From IMG/VR virus record IMGVR_UViG_3300042558_004043: a stretch of DNA of 64,000 nucleotides. One strand, given 5' to 3'. The position numbers and the translations under genes were made by a program. The notes below the pieces were generated by a model. The model had not been told where the DNA came from. It saw only the letters and a list, made by a program, of their open reading frames with translations, and did no database searches. Shown in pieces: positions 56,618 to 64,000 of this stretch (position 1 is the stretch's first letter; the number at the start of each line of letters is the position of its first letter). Source of the DNA: a virus (taxonomy: Duplodnaviria; Caudoviricetes).

Positions 56618-57200
56618 CCAAAATATCATATAGGTATTTTCTATGTATTGTCGAATAGTCTTTGACTAATATACAATCGTTTTTGTTTATTTTTCTTAAG
56701 TATTGACCTAACTCATCTAAAAATCTATTTGAGTCGGAATCGTTCTTAAATGTAAAAAGTTTATAATTTTCATCTATCTGTACTATAACTTTATTATTGA
56801 GTTTGGAAATCATTTTGATTCCTGTAACCTTTAGATATTTCTGTATAAACTCTTTAGAATTAATTTTTTTCTTAGTTTGGTAGTCTAAGAATTCCTCTTC
56901 AATTTCATATGAAATTATTTTACTGATTGTAAACTCCTCGTCATCTAAATCAACTTTGATTTGCCTACCAAGTTCATCTTTAATAAAAAGTTTTTCCTCG
57001 TTTGATTTCTTTTTCTCCAATATGGCAAGTTCATAAAATGAATGACTACCGTTCTCGTACTTAACAGGAAAAACAACTTCATTGGATTCTTCAATAAGAA
57101 TTTTAAACTTAGCATTTGTTTTTTTATAAGTTTTAAACTTATTGATTATTTTCTTTTTTATTTTATTTTTGAATAAAACAATTTGGAAATTATAGTCCAT
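56559..57200 (-). CDS. hypothetical basic protein
   Basis: 213-aa ORF, divergent from dnaJ. Confidence 0.75.
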   Translation of the reverse strand: MDYNFQIVLFKNKIKKKIINKFKTYKKTNAKFKILIEESNEVVFPVKYENGSHSFYELAILEKKKSNEEKLFIKDELGRQIKVDLDDEEFTISKIISYEIEEEFLDYQTKKKINSKEFIQKYLKVTGIKMISKLNNKVIVQIDENYKLFTFKNDSDSNRFLDELGQYLRKINKNDCILVKDYSTIHRKYLYDILVNQGFPRSYLQRHSTTHPK

Positions 57201-57241
57201 ACTAAATAATAAGAATCATTAAATAATTTTAAATATTGATT

Positions 57242-58168
57242 ATGAGTGCTGAAAGTTATTACAACATTTTAGGTGTTTCAGAAACCGCAACACAAGATGA
57301 AATTAAAAAAGCTTATAGAAAGAAGGCTGTAGAACATCACCCTGATAAAGGTGGTGATGAACAAGTATTTAAAAAAATATCAGAGGCGTATGATACGGTA
57401 GGTGATGAGAATAAACGCAGACAGTATGATGCTCAGAAAAATAATCCATTTGGAGGAGGGTTTAATCCGTTTGAGGATTTCTTCTCTCAATTTGGAGGAA
57501 GACAACAACGTCAACAAAGACCTCAAGTACCTGATAAGGTTGTAAATCTTGATGTTACAGTTATTGAATCTTATTTGGGTGTCGATAAAACAATTAATTA
57601 TAGTCGTAAACACGCTTGTAATACATGTAGTGGAAGCGGAGGAGATAGAAACACTTGTAGTAAGTGTAATGGACAAGGTTTCGTTACAGTTAGAATGGGT
57701 AACGGAATGTTCATTCAAATGATGCAACAGATGTGTGATTTATGTGGGGGACAAGGTTCTGTATTGACAAGGAGATGCGTTACTTGTAACGGACAAGGTA
57801 CAAGGTCTGAAATGGAAAGTGTTACATTCAAATTACCGCACGGCTCAGACAACGGTCAATTCTATAGAATGAATGACTTAGGTGATTATCATGGTGGTTT
57901 TTACGGAAACTTAGTTATTAAAGTTAACTTGGTTAATTCAGATAACTTTGAAAAAACAGGTAATGACTTAATTTATAACTCTTACCTCAATTTAGATGAT
58001 TTAAACAAAAATTCTGTTGGTGTTCCTCATCCTGATGGTGAAATGAGAGTTAACTTTCCTTTAGAGTTTGATACCTCAAAACCCCTTAGAGTAAAATCTA
58101 AAGGGTTCAAAAATGGGGGTCAAGGGGACCTTTATGTAAAATTGTTCGTTAAGTTTAAAAGAGGTTGA
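57242..58168 (+). CDS. dnaJ: DnaJ/Hsp40 co-chaperone (J domain, zinc fingers, C-terminal domain)
   Basis: YYNILGV...HHPDKGG; four CxxCxGxG repeats (CNTCSGSG, CSKCNGQG, CDLCGGQG, CVTCNGQG); GDLYV. Confidence 0.93.
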   Translation: MSAESYYNILGVSETATQDEIKKAYRKKAVEHHPDKGGDEQVFKKISEAYDTVGDENKRRQYDAQKNNPFGGGFNPFEDFFSQFGGRQQRQQRPQVPDKVVNLDVTVIESYLGVDKTINYSRKHACNTCSGSGGDRNTCSKCNGQGFVTVRMGNGMFIQMMQQMCDLCGGQGSVLTRRCVTCNGQGTRSEMESVTFKLPHGSDNGQFYRMNDLGDYHGGFYGNLVIKVNLVNSDNFEKTGNDLIYNSYLNLDDLNKNSVGVPHPDGEMRVNFPLEFDTSKPLRVKSKGFKNGGQGDLYVKLFVKFKRG

Positions 58169-58328
58169 TTATATTCTCGATAATTTTAACGGTCCCATAA
58201 ACTGCGGATATCAAAAAGTAAATCGAGAAAATTATCAAAGGGGTAGGTAACGCGGATAATGGTTTCTTAGCGTTACATGTTTTACATGATTTTTTTTCAG
58301 GGGTGATGTCTATTATATTGTTCTCCAT
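58155..58328 (-). CDS. 57-aa CxxC single-TM protein not in the ORF track
   Basis: Manual translation MENNIIDITPEKKSCKTCNAKKPLSALPTPLIIFSIYFLISAVYGTVKIIENIINLF*; has upstream promoter-like motifs. Confidence 0.7.
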   Translation of the reverse strand: MENNIIDITPEKKSCKTCNAKKPLSALPTPLIIFSIYFLISAVYGTVKIIENIINLF

Positions 58329-58382
58329 ATTATTAATTTTGAATAAAATATAAGGGTTATTTTCAAATCTATAAATATTTTA

Positions 58383-58415
58383 TTTGCTTTTTTGGTATTT
58401 CTTTACTATATTTTG
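58383..58415 (+). promoter_or_regulatory. candidate Bacteroidota-type promoter for the R-M genes
   Basis: TTTG (58383)-N20-TATATTTTG (58407). Confidence 0.6.
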
Positions 58416-58431
58416 AATAAATCAGATAAAC

Positions 58432-59913
58432 ATGCAAAAACTTTCGAGTAACACACTTTCCATATTTGAATCCGCCACAAATGAAAAGGACATTGAAAAT
58501 GGATATAGATATTATTTCAAAACTATAATTGGTGATATAAATTTTACATCACCTTATGGTTGTGATGGATTTGGAGTTTCTGAAAGTTTGGGGATGAGGG
58601 TTCTATGTGAATTTAAAGATGACCTTAGTTTAAGTTCAAGAAACGAATTGGTTAAAGTTCTTTGTCAATCAATCTATTATATAAAGAAATTTGAATTATC
58701 AGGCCAGAAACTACCCAAAACTATTTTCATTGGGGATAGAAACGAATGTTTGGTTTTGCACGTTAATGACGTTTTCCATTATCTATCAATTAACTTTGAT
58801 TGGAATATCGCACCATCAAACGCTCACAAAAATTTGGACCTATATCAGAAATTATTTAATGATGATAATATTAATCCATTCATATTTTCTGTTGAGGATT
58901 TACCAACCGCTATCGATAAGTGTAAAGATTTGAATCAAAATGTTAAACGATTGATTCCGGTAACACCTCATAATATAACTGAAGTATATAACTATTTTGA
59001 AAAGAATGTTGTTGGGTCTCATAAACTATCAACCAATGAATTGTCAAATTTATTCATTCAGATATTAATATCACCCGGTGAAAACTATCTCCATCCAATC
59101 AAAGGAAAGAAAGTTGTTGTAACAAAAAACTTTGGTGAAGTTACTGTCAAAAGTAAGGAAGCGTTCGAATCTTTTTTCTCTCATTTTTCAAGGGAATATA
59201 CTCCAAGAGAAAAAGAAGCTCTAACTTCAATTGTTGACAGGCTTGTTGAAGATACAACTCGTCGTAAACAAGGTGAGTTTTTTACTCCAACAATTTGGGT
59301 TGATAAAGCTCATGAATATATTTCATCTGTATTTGGTGAGGATTGGAAGGAACAGTATGTGGTGTGGGACCCGGCTTGGGGGACAGGGAATTTAACCCGT
59401 GATTATAAGTTCAAGGAACTTTATGTTTCAACGTTGAACCAATCTGATATTGATACTGCGAATCAAATGGGATATAATCCTGAGGCGGTTAAGTTTCAGT
59501 TTGATTTTTTGAACGACCCCGATGAAAAACTTCCCCAAGGGTTAAAAAATGCTATTGATGAAGGTCGTGAGATTATTGTGTTTATGAATCCACCTTATGG
59601 GACTTCTTCCACATCGGAAAATAAACACAAAGAAGGGACTTCACTTACTAAAATTTCTGATATTATGAAATTAGAAAAATTAGGAAAATCTTGTGAACAA
59701 CTTTATGCTCAATTTTTATTTAAAATAAAATCATTAAAAATTAACCACATCTGTATATTTGCCAAACCTAATTTTTTTTCAAGTTCAGGTTTTACTGAGT
59801 TTAGAACAAAAGTATGGTATGAATATCACTTTAAAAATGGATTTGTAATGGATTCTTCAGAATTCGCAGATGTAAAAAAATGGCCTTTAACTTTTACAAT
59901 ATGGAACAAATAA
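58432..59913 (+). CDS. type IIG-like restriction endonuclease / N6-adenine methyltransferase fusion, lacking the TRD half
   Basis: PD-(D/E)XK-like CDG...CEFK...QSIYY; MTase motifs GEFFTP, WDPAWGTGNL, FDFL and NPPY. Confidence 0.82.
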   Translation: MQKLSSNTLSIFESATNEKDIENGYRYYFKTIIGDINFTSPYGCDGFGVSESLGMRVLCEFKDDLSLSSRNELVKVLCQSIYYIKKFELSGQKLPKTIFIGDRNECLVLHVNDVFHYLSINFDWNIAPSNAHKNLDLYQKLFNDDNINPFIFSVEDLPTAIDKCKDLNQNVKRLIPVTPHNITEVYNYFEKNVVGSHKLSTNELSNLFIQILISPGENYLHPIKGKKVVVTKNFGEVTVKSKEAFESFFSHFSREYTPREKEALTSIVDRLVEDTTRRKQGEFFTPTIWVDKAHEYISSVFGEDWKEQYVVWDPAWGTGNLTRDYKFKELYVSTLNQSDIDTANQMGYNPEAVKFQFDFLNDPDEKLPQGLKNAIDEGREIIVFMNPPYGTSSTSENKHKEGTSLTKISDIMKLEKLGKSCEQLYAQFLFKIKSLKINHICIFAKPNFFSSSGFTEFRTKVWYEYHFKNGFVMDSSEFADVKKWPLTFTIWNK

Positions 59914-60713
59914 AATTAGATGTTTTACAATCAAAAGATTTTTTAATCACAAAGATAGGTGAGAAAAAATTTTATAACATTGACAAAGAAGTTTCTTTGA
60001 ATAAATGGATGGACAAAAAATTTGGAGATAATATTTTTGGTTTTTTAATTTCTGATGCTAATAATTTAGAAAAAAGTGTTCGTTCAGTTTATTTCCAAAA
60101 CGCACCTGTTAATAATAACAATAAGAAATATAAAATTGGTAATCATAATTTTATTAAGGCAGTTACACTGTTTTCGGCCAGAAGATTACCAAATGTTACA
60201 TGGTTGAATGAAAAAGATGAATTTTTAGCTCCTACTGAGAATATAAATAATTTTTCATATGACTCAATTGTTATTTCACTTTTTAATAACGCTTCATATC
60301 AGAAATCCAATAATGAACTAAAAAACGAATTTTTTTGGTTATCTAAAAACGAAATGCTTGAACTTTCAAATCAAAATAATTATTCTGACCTTTATAATGA
60401 CGCAAGAACTGATTCAGATAGATACGTTCATAAATTACTATTTGGTGAAGAAAGAATTTATGATAAACTATCACCTGACGCAAAATTAGTTCTTGATAAA
60501 GCAACTGAATTAGTTAGGAAGTCAATGCAAATGAGAGAGATATTTGCAAACGATGAAAATCATCTTAAATCATGGGACGCAGGTTACGCTCAACTCAAAC
60601 TTATTTGGAAAGAATATTATGCTGATGAATTCAAAGAATTCAGACAATTATATAAAAATTTGGAAGACAGAATGAGACCATTAGTCTATGAACTAGGATT
60701 CCTTTTAAAATAA
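59901..60713 (+). CDS. target-recognition/C-terminal portion of the type IIG-like enzyme (alternative start 59880)
   Basis: Overlaps the MTase stop in the -1 frame; no catalytic motifs; ends with a helical WDAGYAQLK region. Confidence 0.65.
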   Translation: MEQIKLDVLQSKDFLITKIGEKKFYNIDKEVSLNKWMDKKFGDNIFGFLISDANNLEKSVRSVYFQNAPVNNNNKKYKIGNHNFIKAVTLFSARRLPNVTWLNEKDEFLAPTENINNFSYDSIVISLFNNASYQKSNNELKNEFFWLSKNEMLELSNQNNYSDLYNDARTDSDRYVHKLLFGEERIYDKLSPDAKLVLDKATELVRKSMQMREIFANDENHLKSWDAGYAQLKLIWKEYYADEFKEFRQLYKNLEDRMRPLVYELGFLLK

Positions 60714-60719
60714 AAAATC

Positions 60720-61562
60720 ATGTTATCATACATCGGAGGAAAATCAAAAATAGGTAAATGGATAGTTCCATATTACCCAACTGATATGGAAACATACGTG
60801 GAAACATTTGGAGGAATGTTCTGGTGTTTCTTTAATATGGATTTGAAACAATATCCAAATCTAAAACGGGTTGTTTATAATGACTTCAATCCACTAAACT
60901 ATAACTTGTTTATGTGTCTTCAGAACCCTGAAGTATTACTTTCAGCGGTTAATAGAATACCATGTCAACAACAAGGAGTTGAGGAAACACCAGTAGTATA
61001 TAAAGAACAGTTTAACGAGTTTCAAAAAGAAATATTCGGGGATGGTTTCACAATAAACTATCCTGATTATGATGTTGCCGCAAAATACGCTTATGTTTTG
61101 ACACAAGTGTTTAGTGGTTCTAAACCTGAAACAAGTTCATTTATTGACCTAAAGGGTAAATACAAATCAAAGTATCTTACGTTCAGAGACAAATTATCTA
61201 AACCTGATTGGGTAGAACATTTTAACAGGATAAGTCATTTTAGATTGGGTGACTTTGAAAATGTTATAAAAGAATTTGATAGTCCGACAACTTATTTCTA
61301 TCTTGACCCCCCGTATTGGAAGACCGAGAATTATTATTCAAATCACGACTTTGACCGAGATGACCACGAGAGACTGGCAAATGTGTTGAAAACTATTGAA
61401 GGAAAATTTTCGTTATCTTATTATGATTTCGTACTTTTGTCGGAGTGGTTTCCCCAAGACCAATATAGATGGGAAAAGAAAGAATTTGCTAAGGCTGCCG
61501 CGGCAAAGAAAGGACAATCCCAAAATATGGGAGAGGAACTACTTATTATGAATTATTTTTAA
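60720..61562 (+). CDS. Dam-like (D12 class) DNA adenine methyltransferase
   Basis: YIGGKS, YVETFGG, VYNDFN and FYLDPPY. Confidence 0.9.
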   Translation: MLSYIGGKSKIGKWIVPYYPTDMETYVETFGGMFWCFFNMDLKQYPNLKRVVYNDFNPLNYNLFMCLQNPEVLLSAVNRIPCQQQGVEETPVVYKEQFNEFQKEIFGDGFTINYPDYDVAAKYAYVLTQVFSGSKPETSSFIDLKGKYKSKYLTFRDKLSKPDWVEHFNRISHFRLGDFENVIKEFDSPTTYFYLDPPYWKTENYYSNHDFDRDDHERLANVLKTIEGKFSLSYYDFVLLSEWFPQDQYRWEKKEFAKAAAAKKGQSQNMGEELLIMNYF

Positions 61563-63262: not shown

Positions 63263-63294
63263 TTTGGTGGGACAGAGTTTCCGCCATATATTTG
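63263..63294 (+). promoter_or_regulatory. consensus Bacteroidota housekeeping promoter
   Basis: TTTG (63263)-N20-TATATTTG (63287), an exact match to the -33 TTTG / -7 TAnnTTTG consensus. Confidence 0.75.
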
Positions 63295-63318: not shown

Positions 63319-64000
63319 ATGATGACAATTCAAGACCTCAAATTCAAAGCTCCTTCAGTATTCACCACTGAAAAATCGCCAAAAGTATCTGACCGTTATA
63401 TGATGGTTCCCACTATCGATGTCGTAAATAAGTTTATGGATGCAGGTTGGGAAATATCAAAAGCGAATCAAGTTGGTTCAGGGCCATTTAACCGTCACTC
63501 AGTTCGTATGAGAAACTCAGTTCTCCCCAAGGTTGGTGACTCTTTGGTTGAAGCTATCATTACCAACTCACACAATGGTACATCTAAACTTGAAATCGGA
63601 GCAGGACTATTCCGACTCGTATGTTCCAACGGACTTGTTATCTCACAACAAGAATTGATTTCACTCAATCAACGTCACATGAAAATCTCAATGGACGAGG
63701 TTGAGATGATTACTGAGACATTCATCAAGTCAACACCGGTGATTGAACGTTCAGTTAACCGTATGTCTGAGATTAAGATGGATACAGACAAACAGGTTGA
63801 TTTCGCAACCAAGGCCATGGGTATCCGATGGAAAAACACTGAGGATATTTCCACAATGACAATTGATAGTATCCTTAATCCAATCCGTCGGGATGACATG
63901 GACCCGACACTTTGGAACACATTCAATGTGGTCCAAGAGAAACTAATTCGTGGTGGTTTTGTTAAACAACAGAGTAACAAAACACGTCAGGTGAAACCAA
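63319..64000 (+). CDS. DUF932/DUF945-like protein, 3' truncated by the window edge (not in the ORF track)
   Basis: Manual translation MMTIQDLKFKAPSVF...SDRY..VPT...ITNSHNGTS...GLFRLVCSNGLV; NSH.G and FR.VC.NGL are family motifs; frame open to the window end. Confidence 0.82.
   Translation, partial: MMTIQDLKFKAPSVFTTEKSPKVSDRYMMVPTIDVVNKFMDAGWEISKANQVGSGPFNRHSVRMRNSVLPKVGDSLVEAIITNSHNGTSKLEIGAGLFRLVCSNGLVISQQELISLNQRHMKISMDEVEMITETFIKSTPVIERSVNRMSEIKMDTDKQVDFATKAMGIRWKNTEDISTMTIDSILNPIRRDDMDPTLWNTFNVVQEKLIRGGFVKQQSNKTRQVKP

What the first reader, a model, noticed from the sequence alone, without database searches (positions are those of the whole stretch)
58432..60713. Phage-encoded type IIG-like restriction-modification enzyme split at a slippery A7 tract
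Seen: the nuclease plus MTase ORF stops at 59913 just after the MTase core, and the remainder continues in the -1 frame. At the overlap is GTA AAA AAA TGG, an A_AAA_AAA heptamer at 59874-59880 in exactly the register where a -1 ribosomal slip or an A7-to-A8 change fuses the two ORFs. A second in-frame ATG at 59901 overlaps the stop and allows separate translation. Known: type IIG enzymes are normally single REase-MTase-TRD chains, and X_XXY_YYZ heptamers promote -1 frameshifting. Inference: either a switchable phage R-M weapon (host DNA degradation or competitor exclusion), a true two-subunit enzyme, or a frameshift lesion. The W..TF.IW residues after the A tract look motif-like, which would favour a lesion or split nearer 59901-59913.
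Basis: partly seen in the sequence, partly recalled or inferred. Interest (0 to 1): 0.72.

Follow-up and report, generated by a model that had tools for sequence, protein, structure and literature searches.

The report
Two-gene phage restriction enzyme, swappable cassette
A giant lake-water phage carries a cut-and-methylate enzyme as two ordinary overlapping genes, not as one gene broken at a run of seven A's, and the join lies inside a stretch of about 700 bases that differs strongly between otherwise near-identical phages.

Summary
The ORFs, their frames and the A7 tract (59874-59880) are all real. The A7 tract is not where the protein switches frame. Single-chain relatives continue in frame 0 through the conserved strand W-x-L-x-F-[ST]-I, which lies after the A tract. 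They align with ORF2 only from "QIKLDVL" onwards. ORF2 therefore starts at ATG 59901 (270 aa) and overlaps the ORF1 stop by 13 nt.

About half of the nearest relatives are split at this same domain boundary. They are split in all three relative frames, and each has its own ATG. The closest relative with the same 13-nt overlap has GTG AAA AAA, so it lacks the heptamer. Contigs from three independent lake metagenomes match the junction exactly. ORF2 is under strong purifying selection.

ORF1 combines a PD-(D/E)xK nuclease (E18, D45, E60, K62 invariant) with a gamma-class N6-adenine methyltransferase. Its model resembles DrdV, BpuSI and the BsaXI RM subunit. ORF2 is a variable beta-rich domain followed by a conserved helical domain, and the complex model docks it onto the end of ORF1.

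New here: 59600-60300 is a hypervariable cassette. At least 12 alleles, no more than 51% identical to each other, sit on a backbone that is 84-99% identical. Whether an allele is fused or split follows the cassette.

Verdict: a natural two-subunit type IIG-like enzyme, with no recoding.

The parts
58432..59913 (+). ORF1, the RM subunit (493 aa): nuclease, helical linker and gamma-class N6-adenine methyltransferase
   Evidence: AF2 model pLDDT 91.6. Aligns to DrdV residues 2-577 with Z 17.1, rmsd 12.2, 331-340 aligned, and to the BsaXI RM subunit 7-621 with Z 14.7, rmsd 21.9, 340 aligned. Foldseek top hits are DrdV, BpuSI and BsaXI.
58432..58836 (+). PD-(D/E)xK nuclease domain (aa 1-135). E18 is at 58483-58485, D45 at 58564-58566, E60 at 58609-58611, K62 at 58615-58617.
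   Evidence: E18, D45 and E60 are invariant and K62 is at least 90% conserved in 77 sequences; all four are invariant in 54. E18 lies on helix 18-32, D45 at the start of strand 46-50, and E60-x-K62 on strand 55-61.
59227..59910 (+). Methyltransferase domain (aa 266-493): motif X GEFFTPT at 59272-59292, motif I VWDPAWGTGN at 59362-59391, motif IV NPPY at 59587-59598
   Evidence: Invariant G281, T285, G317, N386, P387 and P388. PDB profile hits DrdV at 5.7e-5, HsdM and M.BseCI. VIA Z 15-16.6 to LlaGI, M.TaqI and MmeI, with every alignment ending at residue 493.
59874..59880 (+). A7 tract: two Lys codons of the conserved DVKKW motif. It is incidental and is not the frame switch.
   Evidence: L021 has GTG AAA AAA at this position.
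59901..60713 (+). ORF2, the S-like subunit (270 aa): a variable beta-rich domain (aa 1-135) and a conserved helical domain (aa 141-270). The real start is ATG 59901.
   Evidence: An independent gene call in L021 gives 270 aa with the same 13-nt overlap. AF2 pLDDT 95.7. Weak best fold rows fall on the recognition-domain (TRD) regions of DrdV, M.BseCI, PglX, CamA and LlaBIII.
59901..59913 (+). 13-nt overlap ATGGAACAAATAA: the ORF2 start lies inside the end of ORF1
   Evidence: L021 keeps it as ATGGAACAAATGA.
59600..60300 (+). Hypervariable cassette: ORF1 aa ~390-493 (directly after NPPY) plus ORF2 aa 1-~135
   Evidence: 47-66% nt identity to L001 and L022, against 95-100% in the adjoining parts of both ORFs. 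73-86% nt identity to L021, whose backbone is 48-64% identical. Twelve alleles. Contig break points at 59569, 59572 and 59604.
60720..61562 (+). Neighbouring D12-class (Dam-like) adenine methyltransferase. It is not a fixed partner.
   Evidence: Pfam PF02086 at 1.2e-18. Present downstream in L001, L002 and L004, replaced by an N6_N4 MTase in L021, and absent in other loci.

Best explanation
The locus encodes a type IIG/IIL-like restriction-modification enzyme as two separately translated proteins. ORF1 (58432-59913) carries the PD-(D/E)xK nuclease, a helical linker and the gamma-class N6-adenine methyltransferase. It ends three residues after the last beta strand of the methyltransferase domain. 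ORF2 starts at ATG 59901, 13 nt before the ORF1 stop. This layout fits termination-reinitiation coupling (inferred). ORF2 supplies the variable beta-rich domain, probably the DNA-recognition domain, and a conserved helical domain. In most relatives these form the C-terminal third of one ~800-aa chain. The two proteins are predicted to reassemble by strand addition: ORF2 residues 2-28 pair with ORF1 residues 445-489. No frameshift, phase switch or lesion is involved, and the A7 tract is two Lys codons. The join sits in the middle of a ~700-bp cassette (59600-60300) that related lake phages exchange by recombination at conserved anchors, NPPY on the left and the WDIKNEFFW region on the right. 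Exchange would change which DNA sequence is methylated and cut (inferred). Each cassette allele is either fused or split.
For: Position of the switch:
- Fused homologues continue in frame 0 through W.L.FSI and align with ORF2 from QIKLDVL.
- 65 of about 120 nearest clusters are ORF1-length; the 60 listed end within 3-9 residues of the strand motif where it was matched (57 of 60).
- Phage loci are fused, or split in frame 0, +1 or -1. Each split form has its own ATG followed by M.[FY].FD[VI]L.
- L021 keeps the 13-nt overlap but has no A7. Its one substitution in the overlap stretch is synonymous in frame 0 and changes the residue in frame -1.

Not an artefact or a dead gene:
- Contigs of three independent lake runs are identical across 58846-60333 with no indels.
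- ORF2 against L021 gives dN 0.17 with dS saturated. The ORF2 C-terminal part against L001 gives dN/dS 0.022.
- The window sits in a well-supported set of 13 rows that are all split.

Enzyme identity:
- Nuclease and MTase motifs are invariant.
- Fold matches to DrdV, BpuSI and BsaXI.

Assembly:
- Complex model ipSAE 0.81 (three runs, at least 80% of contacts shared, partner pLDDT at least 86) against a best control of 0.00. That mark was reached by 58 of 80 solved complexes and 2 of 110 mismatched pairs.
- These are halves of a protein that is fused in relatives, so this pass was expected and adds little.

Cassette.
Against: - Nothing here measures translation, binding, methylation or cleavage.
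- Contigs drop rare variants, so a minor A8 subpopulation is not excluded.
- ORF2 has no convincing solved-structure match (best Z 5.2, rmsd 4.5, 133 aligned). Its role as the recognition domain rests on its position, its variability and weak fold rows.
- There is no Shine-Dalgarno sequence before ATG 59901, and coupling is inferred from the layout alone.
Confidence: 0.85

Rival explanations
1. A programmed -1 ribosomal frameshift, or A7/A8 phase variation, at 59874-59880 fuses ORF1 to ORF2 and makes the enzyme switchable.
For: A_AAA_AAA is in the correct register and the -1 frame is open from 59835.
Against: - A slip would replace the near-invariant strand WPLTFTIW (W484, F488), which lies in the predicted interface, with MAFNFYN.
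- The heptamer is lost in L021, which has the same layout.
- Relatives are split in all three frames, and their spacers carry a stop and an ATG.
- No indel appears in contigs of three runs.
Confidence: 0.03
2. A frameshift lesion: a formerly single-chain gene that is now dead or dying.
For: Most cluster representatives (90 of 150) and nearly all bacterial homologues (69 of 80) are single chains. A few short forms, such as P0114, are true internal truncations.
Against: - ORF2 is intact over 270 codons and is under strong purifying selection.
- The same layout is kept in L021 at 75% amino-acid identity.
- The window sits in a well-supported set of 13 all-split alleles.
- The break falls exactly at the domain boundary and is followed by a start codon.
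Confidence: 0.06
3. An assembly or sequencing error in a homopolymer.
For: Homopolymer runs are error-prone.
Against: Contigs from runs X11, X12 and X14 (different studies, 2020-2025) are identical to the window across the junction. The frame switch is not at the homopolymer.
Confidence: 0.01
4. The enzyme only methylates, protecting the phage from host restriction, and the N-terminal domain no longer cuts DNA. This concerns function, not the split.
For: 17 of 150 cluster representatives lack the N-terminal domain. Phage-borne orphan methyltransferases are common (general knowledge).
Against: E18, D45 and E60 are invariant and K62 is at least 90% conserved across 77 diverse members, and they sit in the canonical places of the PD-(D/E)xK fold.
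Confidence: 0.15

Closest known systems
DrdV and MmeI (type IIL single-chain RM enzymes; PDB 7lo5, 5hr4)
   Same: Same domain order: N-terminal PD-(D/E)xK nuclease, helical linker, gamma-class N6A MTase, C-terminal recognition region. The ORF1 model aligns to DrdV 2-577 (Z 17.1, rmsd 12.2, 331-340 aligned). DrdV is the best profile hit, at 5.7e-5. Bacterial homologues stand alone, like MmeI-type minimal systems.
   Different: Sequence similarity is confined to the MTase core. No MmeI-named Pfam family was hit. The protein is ~800 aa rather than 920-1030. Here the recognition part is a separate protein. ORF2 matches the DrdV TRD only weakly (Z 5.2, rmsd 4.5, 133 aligned).
BsaXI and BcgI (type IIB: an RM subunit plus a separate S subunit; PMC11997821, PMC4081073)
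   Same: Nuclease and MTase sit on one chain and the specificity part on a second gene. Fused counterparts exist in the same class (AloI, PpiI, CjeI). The BsaXI RM subunit is among the top fold hits.
   Different: Type IIB S subunits have two opposed recognition domains, like HsdS, and form (RM)2S. ORF2 has one variable domain plus a helical domain and gave no Pfam hit at all, so a 1:1 pair that mimics the single chain is expected.
BpuSI (type IIG; PDB 3s1s)
   Same: Nuclease-MTase-TRD single chain. Foldseek E 3.9e-9 to ORF1.
   Different: Low sequence identity (12%). BpuSI is not split.
Allelic DNA-recognition domains of type III modA genes (PMC3311624) and TRD reassortment in type I and IIB systems
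   Same: A highly variable recognition segment flanked by conserved arms, with many alleles exchanged by recombination within a population.
   Different: Here the carrier is a jumbo phage. The cassette also includes the post-NPPY half of the MTase domain. Alleles also differ in whether the gene is fused or split.

Membership tests
Type IIG restriction-modification enzymes | Endonuclease and methyltransferase in one polypeptide | tested here: met
   ORF1 holds an invariant E18/D45/E60-x-K62 motif in PD-(D/E)xK topology, plus MTase motifs X, I and IV. Its whole length matches DrdV and BsaXI RM.
Type IIG restriction-modification enzymes | Gamma-class N6-adenine MTase core (motif X before motif I, then NPPY) | tested here: met
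   GEFFTPT at 281-287, VWDPAWGTGN at 311-320, NPPY at 386-389. Hits to HsdM, M.TaqI and M.BseCI. Pfam Eco57I reaches only 16.8 bits against a cutoff of 25.3 for the window's protein.
Type IIG restriction-modification enzymes | Sequence-specific cleavage at a fixed distance, with methylation of the same site | not testable with these tools
   Needs purified protein or methylome data.
MmeI family (type IIL) | Sequence membership across the N-terminal, helical, MTase and TRD regions | tested here: not met
   Pfam returned only a sub-threshold Eco57I hit. A single-sequence PDB search found nothing. The profile hit to DrdV covers the MTase only, and the N-terminal profile has no PDB hit. The resemblance is in fold and architecture.
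Type IIB (BcgI/BsaXI-like RM + S) | Separate S subunit with two recognition domains | tested here: inconclusive
   A separate ORF2 exists. Its model shows one variable beta-rich domain and a helical domain. It has no Pfam hit, and its fold rows are weak.
Programmed -1 frameshift sites | Slippery heptamer conserved at the point where the protein changes frame | tested here: not met
   Homologues stay in frame 0 past the tract. The heptamer is absent in L021. Split relatives use frames 0, +1 and -1.

The most novel reading that the evidence does not exclude
Related giant lake phages keep a large pool of specificity cassettes (at least 12 on one backbone) for a self-encoded restriction-modification enzyme. 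Each strain would then mark its own DNA and cut that of co-infecting rivals or of the host. Repeated fission into RM and S genes, in some alleles through a ~26-nt insert carrying a stop, a promoter-like TATATTTG box and an ATG, would make the recognition module separately expressed and easier to exchange.
Probability: 0.3. Interest if true: 0.65.

Novelty: new variant of a known kind. Interest (0 to 1): 0.4.

Why it matters
The proposed recoding or switch does not exist, so the finding as written is ordinary: a gene split at a domain boundary.

What remains of interest:
- This is an uncurated but very large family of DrdV-like single-chain RM enzymes. It has 1424 clusters at 50% identity, more than 580 loci in bacterial and archaeal species genomes, and no match in PHROGs and only sub-threshold or very weak ones in Pfam, NCBIfam and PADLOC.
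- Jumbo lake phages carry it with an intact nuclease motif.
- Its recognition half behaves as a population-level hypervariable cassette.

If the cassette alleles have different target sequences, the family is a natural series of specificity swaps on one scaffold. It would also be a possible case of phage-against-phage restriction.

Tried and rejected
- blastn of the region against GenBank phages found no match.
- PHROGs, NCBIfam and PADLOC gave nothing useful for ORF1, ORF2 or a fused homologue. The only hit was a weak mad2 / type II MTase hit on motifs X-I.
- Foldseek of ORF2 against PDB found no hit at E <= 0.001.
- The N-terminal profile has no PDB hit by sequence.
- A second copy of ORF2, or silent cassettes, in the 98-kb record: none found. 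That record is only about 33% of the genome.
- Repeats around the locus are only short chance-level matches, so there is no sign of a shufflon.
- Full Bacteroidota promoter pattern TTTG-N17-23-TAnnTTTG in the window: 12 matches against 5.9 expected, not decisive.
- A fixed companion methyltransferase is rejected, because the downstream gene varies between loci.
- Run X1 laid on the stretch gave only short fragments, so it is not informative.

Full report
**Observation**

ORF1 (58432-59913, 493 aa) and a -1 frame ORF (59880-60713, 277 aa) are present as described.
- The A run occupies 59874-59880, in the register GTA AAA AAA TGG.
- ATG 59901 lies in the ORF2 frame.
- The ORF1 stop is TAA at 59911-59913.
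- The -1 frame is open only from 59835, so any change of frame must fall within 59835-59913.

The window lies in an IMG/VR virus record of 97,966 bases, which CheckV rates at 33% complete. It carries ribonucleotide reductase, SbcC-like and baseplate genes. Related contigs are 100-320 kb long. All runs that hold the stretch come from lake-water metagenomes. This is a jumbo phage from lake water.

**Where the protein changes frame**

A search of 5.8 billion proteins gave 3016 relatives of ORF1. The best 120 fall into two length classes, about 490-500 aa and about 800-810 aa.
- In the long forms the chain continues after D-V-K-x through the conserved strand W-x-L-x-F-[ST]-I. In the window this strand is frame 0, downstream of the A tract.
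- After a short, variable, N/K/S-rich linker the long forms align with ORF2 from "QIKLDVLQSKDF".
- The frame switch therefore lies at 59901-59913, not at the A7 tract.
- Where the strand motif was matched (57 of the 60 short forms listed), the protein stops 3-9 residues after it.

**Is the split a lesion, a recoding site or a normal two-gene form?**

Twenty-one related phage loci were examined.

| Junction type | Loci |
|---|---|
| Fused | L001, L002, L004, L018 |
| Split, same frame | L003, L022 |
| Split, +1 frame | L005-L012, L017 |
| Split, -1 frame | L013-L016, L019, L021, and the window |

- Every split form has its own ATG followed by M-x-[FY]-x-F-D-[VI]-L. The ATG comes after a 2-35 nt spacer or a 13-nt overlap.
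- L021 is 69% identical in ORF1. An independent gene caller gave it a 270-aa ORF2 with the same 13-nt overlap (ATGGAACAAATGA).
- L021 has GTG AAA AAA, so the slippery heptamer is not conserved.
- The single substitution between the window and L021 in the stretch TGG..TGG is synonymous in frame 0 and changes the residue in frame -1.
- ORF2 against L021 gives dN 0.17 with saturated dS. Its C-terminal half against L001 gives dN/dS 0.022.
- Contigs from three independent lake runs (X11, X12, X14; 2020-2025) match the window exactly over 58846-60333, with no indel. Contigs cannot exclude a rare A8 variant.

Together these results reject assembly error, lesion and programmed frameshift.

**What the proteins are**

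In an alignment of 77 sequences (down to 33% identity), these residues are invariant:
- E18, D45 and E60; K62 is at least 90% conserved there and invariant in the 54-sequence N-terminal alignment.
- G281 and T285 (motif X, GEFFTPT).
- G317 (motif I).
- N386-P387-P388 (motif IV).

In the AF2 model (pLDDT 91.6), E18 lies on helix 18-32, D45 opens strand 46-50 and E60-x-K62 lies on strand 55-61. This is the canonical PD-(D/E)xK layout.

| Search | Result |
|---|---|
| Foldseek, ORF1 | Top hits DrdV (type IIL), BpuSI (type IIG), BsaXI (type IIB RM subunit) |
| VIA-align, ORF1 | DrdV 2-577 at Z 17.1 (rmsd 12.2, 331-340 aligned); BsaXI 7-621 at Z 14.7 (rmsd 21.9, 340 aligned) |
| MTase-only matches | LlaGI, M.TaqI, MmeI; all end at residue 493 |
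| PDB by sequence profile | DrdV at 5.7e-5, covering the MTase part only |

ORF1 therefore stops exactly at the end of the catalytic domain.

Curated libraries do not cover the family. Pfam Eco57I scores 16.8 bits, below its cutoff, and PHROGs and NCBIfam give nothing.

ORF2 (270 aa, pLDDT 95.7) has a beta-rich N-terminal part and a helical C-terminal part.
- It has no Foldseek hit in PDB.
- In an exhaustive alignment its best rows, though weak, fall on the recognition regions of gamma-class enzymes: DrdV 634-1029 (Z 5.2, rmsd 4.5, 133 aligned), M.BseCI 309-571 (Z 4.3), PglX, CamA and LlaBIII.
- This is consistent with a target-recognition domain but does not prove it.

The complex model of ORF1 with ORF2 scored ipSAE 0.81 (three runs, at least 80% shared contacts, partner pLDDT at least 86) against a best control of 0.00. 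That mark was reached by 58 of 80 solved complexes and 2 of 110 mismatched pairs.
- ORF2 residues 2-28 add strands onto ORF1 residues 445-489.
- These are halves of a protein that is fused in relatives, so the pass was expected. It shows likeness to the fused fold, not measured binding.

**The unexpected part: a cassette**

The window was compared with L001 and L022, which are 95-100% identical to it in nucleotides through the rest of the two ORFs; the wider flanks are mosaic.
- The block 59600-60300 drops to 47-66% identity.
- It begins directly after NPPY (59587-59598) and ends near ORF2 residue 135, before the conserved WDIKNEFFW region.
- The same block is 73-86% identical to L021, whose backbone is only 48-64% identical.

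Eleven protein clusters (P0003-P0013, excluding the fragment-like entries) are 84-99% identical to the window over residues 1-385, and the seven fused ones 86-98% over ORF2 residues 141-270. Over residues 395-493 they are only 29-48% identical, and over ORF2 residues 1-135 only 30-40%.

With the window this makes twelve alleles, mutually no more than 51% identical (median 39%). Seven are fused and five are split.

In run X12, a contig matches the window as far as 59604 and then runs on into unlike sequence, and others join from unlike sequence at 59569 (X12) and 59572 (X11). Other alleles therefore co-occur in the same lake samples.

The interface predicted lies almost wholly inside the cassette, so both contact surfaces move together.

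On a tree of the cassette part, the fused/split label needs 18 changes, at least 9 of them forced by well-supported branches. On the backbone tree it needs 27, and shuffled labels need about 37. These are FastTree trees on few columns, so the counts are rough. The window sits in a well-supported set of 13 split alleles.

**How fission happens**

In one closely related pair (cassette 86% identical), the split allele L104 differs from the fused allele L105 by a 26-nt insert, TGTAAAATAATTTTGTATATTTGTTG.
- The insert supplies the stop and a TATATTTG box and lies just before the new ATG.
- The same box lies in the spacers of L003, L013, L014 and L015.
- It also lies 10-30 nt upstream of ORF1 or of neighbouring genes in several of these phages.
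- It fits the Bacteroidota -7 promoter box TAnnTTTG, a comparison that rests on my own knowledge of that consensus.

The window's allele has no such spacer. Its 13-nt overlap suggests coupled translation instead.

**Distribution**

More than 580 loci in bacterial and archaeal species genomes encode relatives at 26-42% identity, including Clostridium, Staphylococcus, Macrococcus, Treponema, Bacteroidales and Saccharibacteria.
- 69 of the best 80 are single chains and 2 are split.
- Two bacterial loci examined (L025, L050) showed no partner methyltransferase among the neighbouring ORFs, as MmeI-type systems do.
- In the phages the downstream methyltransferase is not fixed: D12 class in the window, L001, L002 and L004, N6_N4 in L021, and unrelated genes elsewhere.
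- Fission is thus largely a feature of the lake jumbo-phage clade, where 66 of the 118 nearest clusters are split.

**Comparison with known systems**

- The architecture and fold are those of type IIG/IIL enzymes (DrdV, MmeI, BpuSI).
- An RM subunit with a separate specificity gene is known from the type IIB enzymes BcgI and BsaXI, which have fused counterparts such as AloI (PMC4081073, PMC11997821).
- Allelic recognition segments flanked by conserved arms are known from type III modA (PMC3311624).

Four things differ here:
- The carrier is a phage.
- The S-like protein has a single recognition domain.
- The cassette includes the post-NPPY half of the MTase domain.
- Fused and split alleles coexist on one backbone.

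Membership of the MmeI family by sequence is not met.

**Verdict**

Its headline mechanism is wrong, and its fallback, a split near 59901-59913 giving a two-subunit enzyme, is right. The split itself is ordinary. The hypervariable cassette is the part worth following up.

Noticed in passing
L104:1560-1720 vs L105:1720-1880; also L003, L013, L014, L015 spacers; window 63287-63294 and 59754-59761: Split alleles with a spacer carry a TATATTTG box, which fits TAnnTTTG, the Bacteroidota -7 promoter box. In one pair a 26-nt insert with a stop and this box, just before an ATG, is the only difference from the fused allele. The box also lies 10-30 nt upstream of ORF1 and neighbouring genes in several related phages, and upstream of the window's gene at 63319. 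It may be a promoter and a hint that the host is a Bacteroidota.
   Followed up: partly
window, upstream of the genes at 1036, 5871, 6519, 8884, 18156, 43075, 53636, 61596: A TATTTAT(A) motif recurs 10-30 nt upstream of many start codons (printout). It may be a phage promoter class.
   Followed up: no
window 60901-61400 (inside the D12 methyltransferase gene 60720-61562): Against L001, the central part of the neighbouring Dam-like methyltransferase drops to 75-89% nt identity, while its ends are 94-98% identical. This is a second, milder variable segment.
   Followed up: no
window 56900-58400: The region holding the 213-aa minus-strand ORF and the DnaJ-like gene (57236-58168; Pfam DnaJ, DnaJ_C, CXXCXGXG) is mosaic against L001, at 56-91% nt identity next to blocks at 95-100%.
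   Followed up: no
P0167, P0187, P0198, P0199 and others: 17 of the 150 best cluster representatives have the methyltransferase and the C-terminal part but lack the N-terminal nuclease domain. They are either methylase-only relatives or genes cut by contig ends.
   Followed up: no
L050:3932-8505 (Staphylococcus schweitzeri DSM 28300): A single-chain bacterial homologue (859 aa) lies downstream of truA and rplM (about 1.8 kb away) and directly upstream of a DUF6414 protein plus an AAA ATPase. This may be a small defence island.
   Followed up: partly
P0114 (529 aa) vs P0082 (801 aa): One short form is a genuine truncation inside the variable domain, 96% identical in the cassette to a fused relative. 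A minority of short forms are therefore real lesions or sequencing errors, unlike the canonical split.
   Followed up: no
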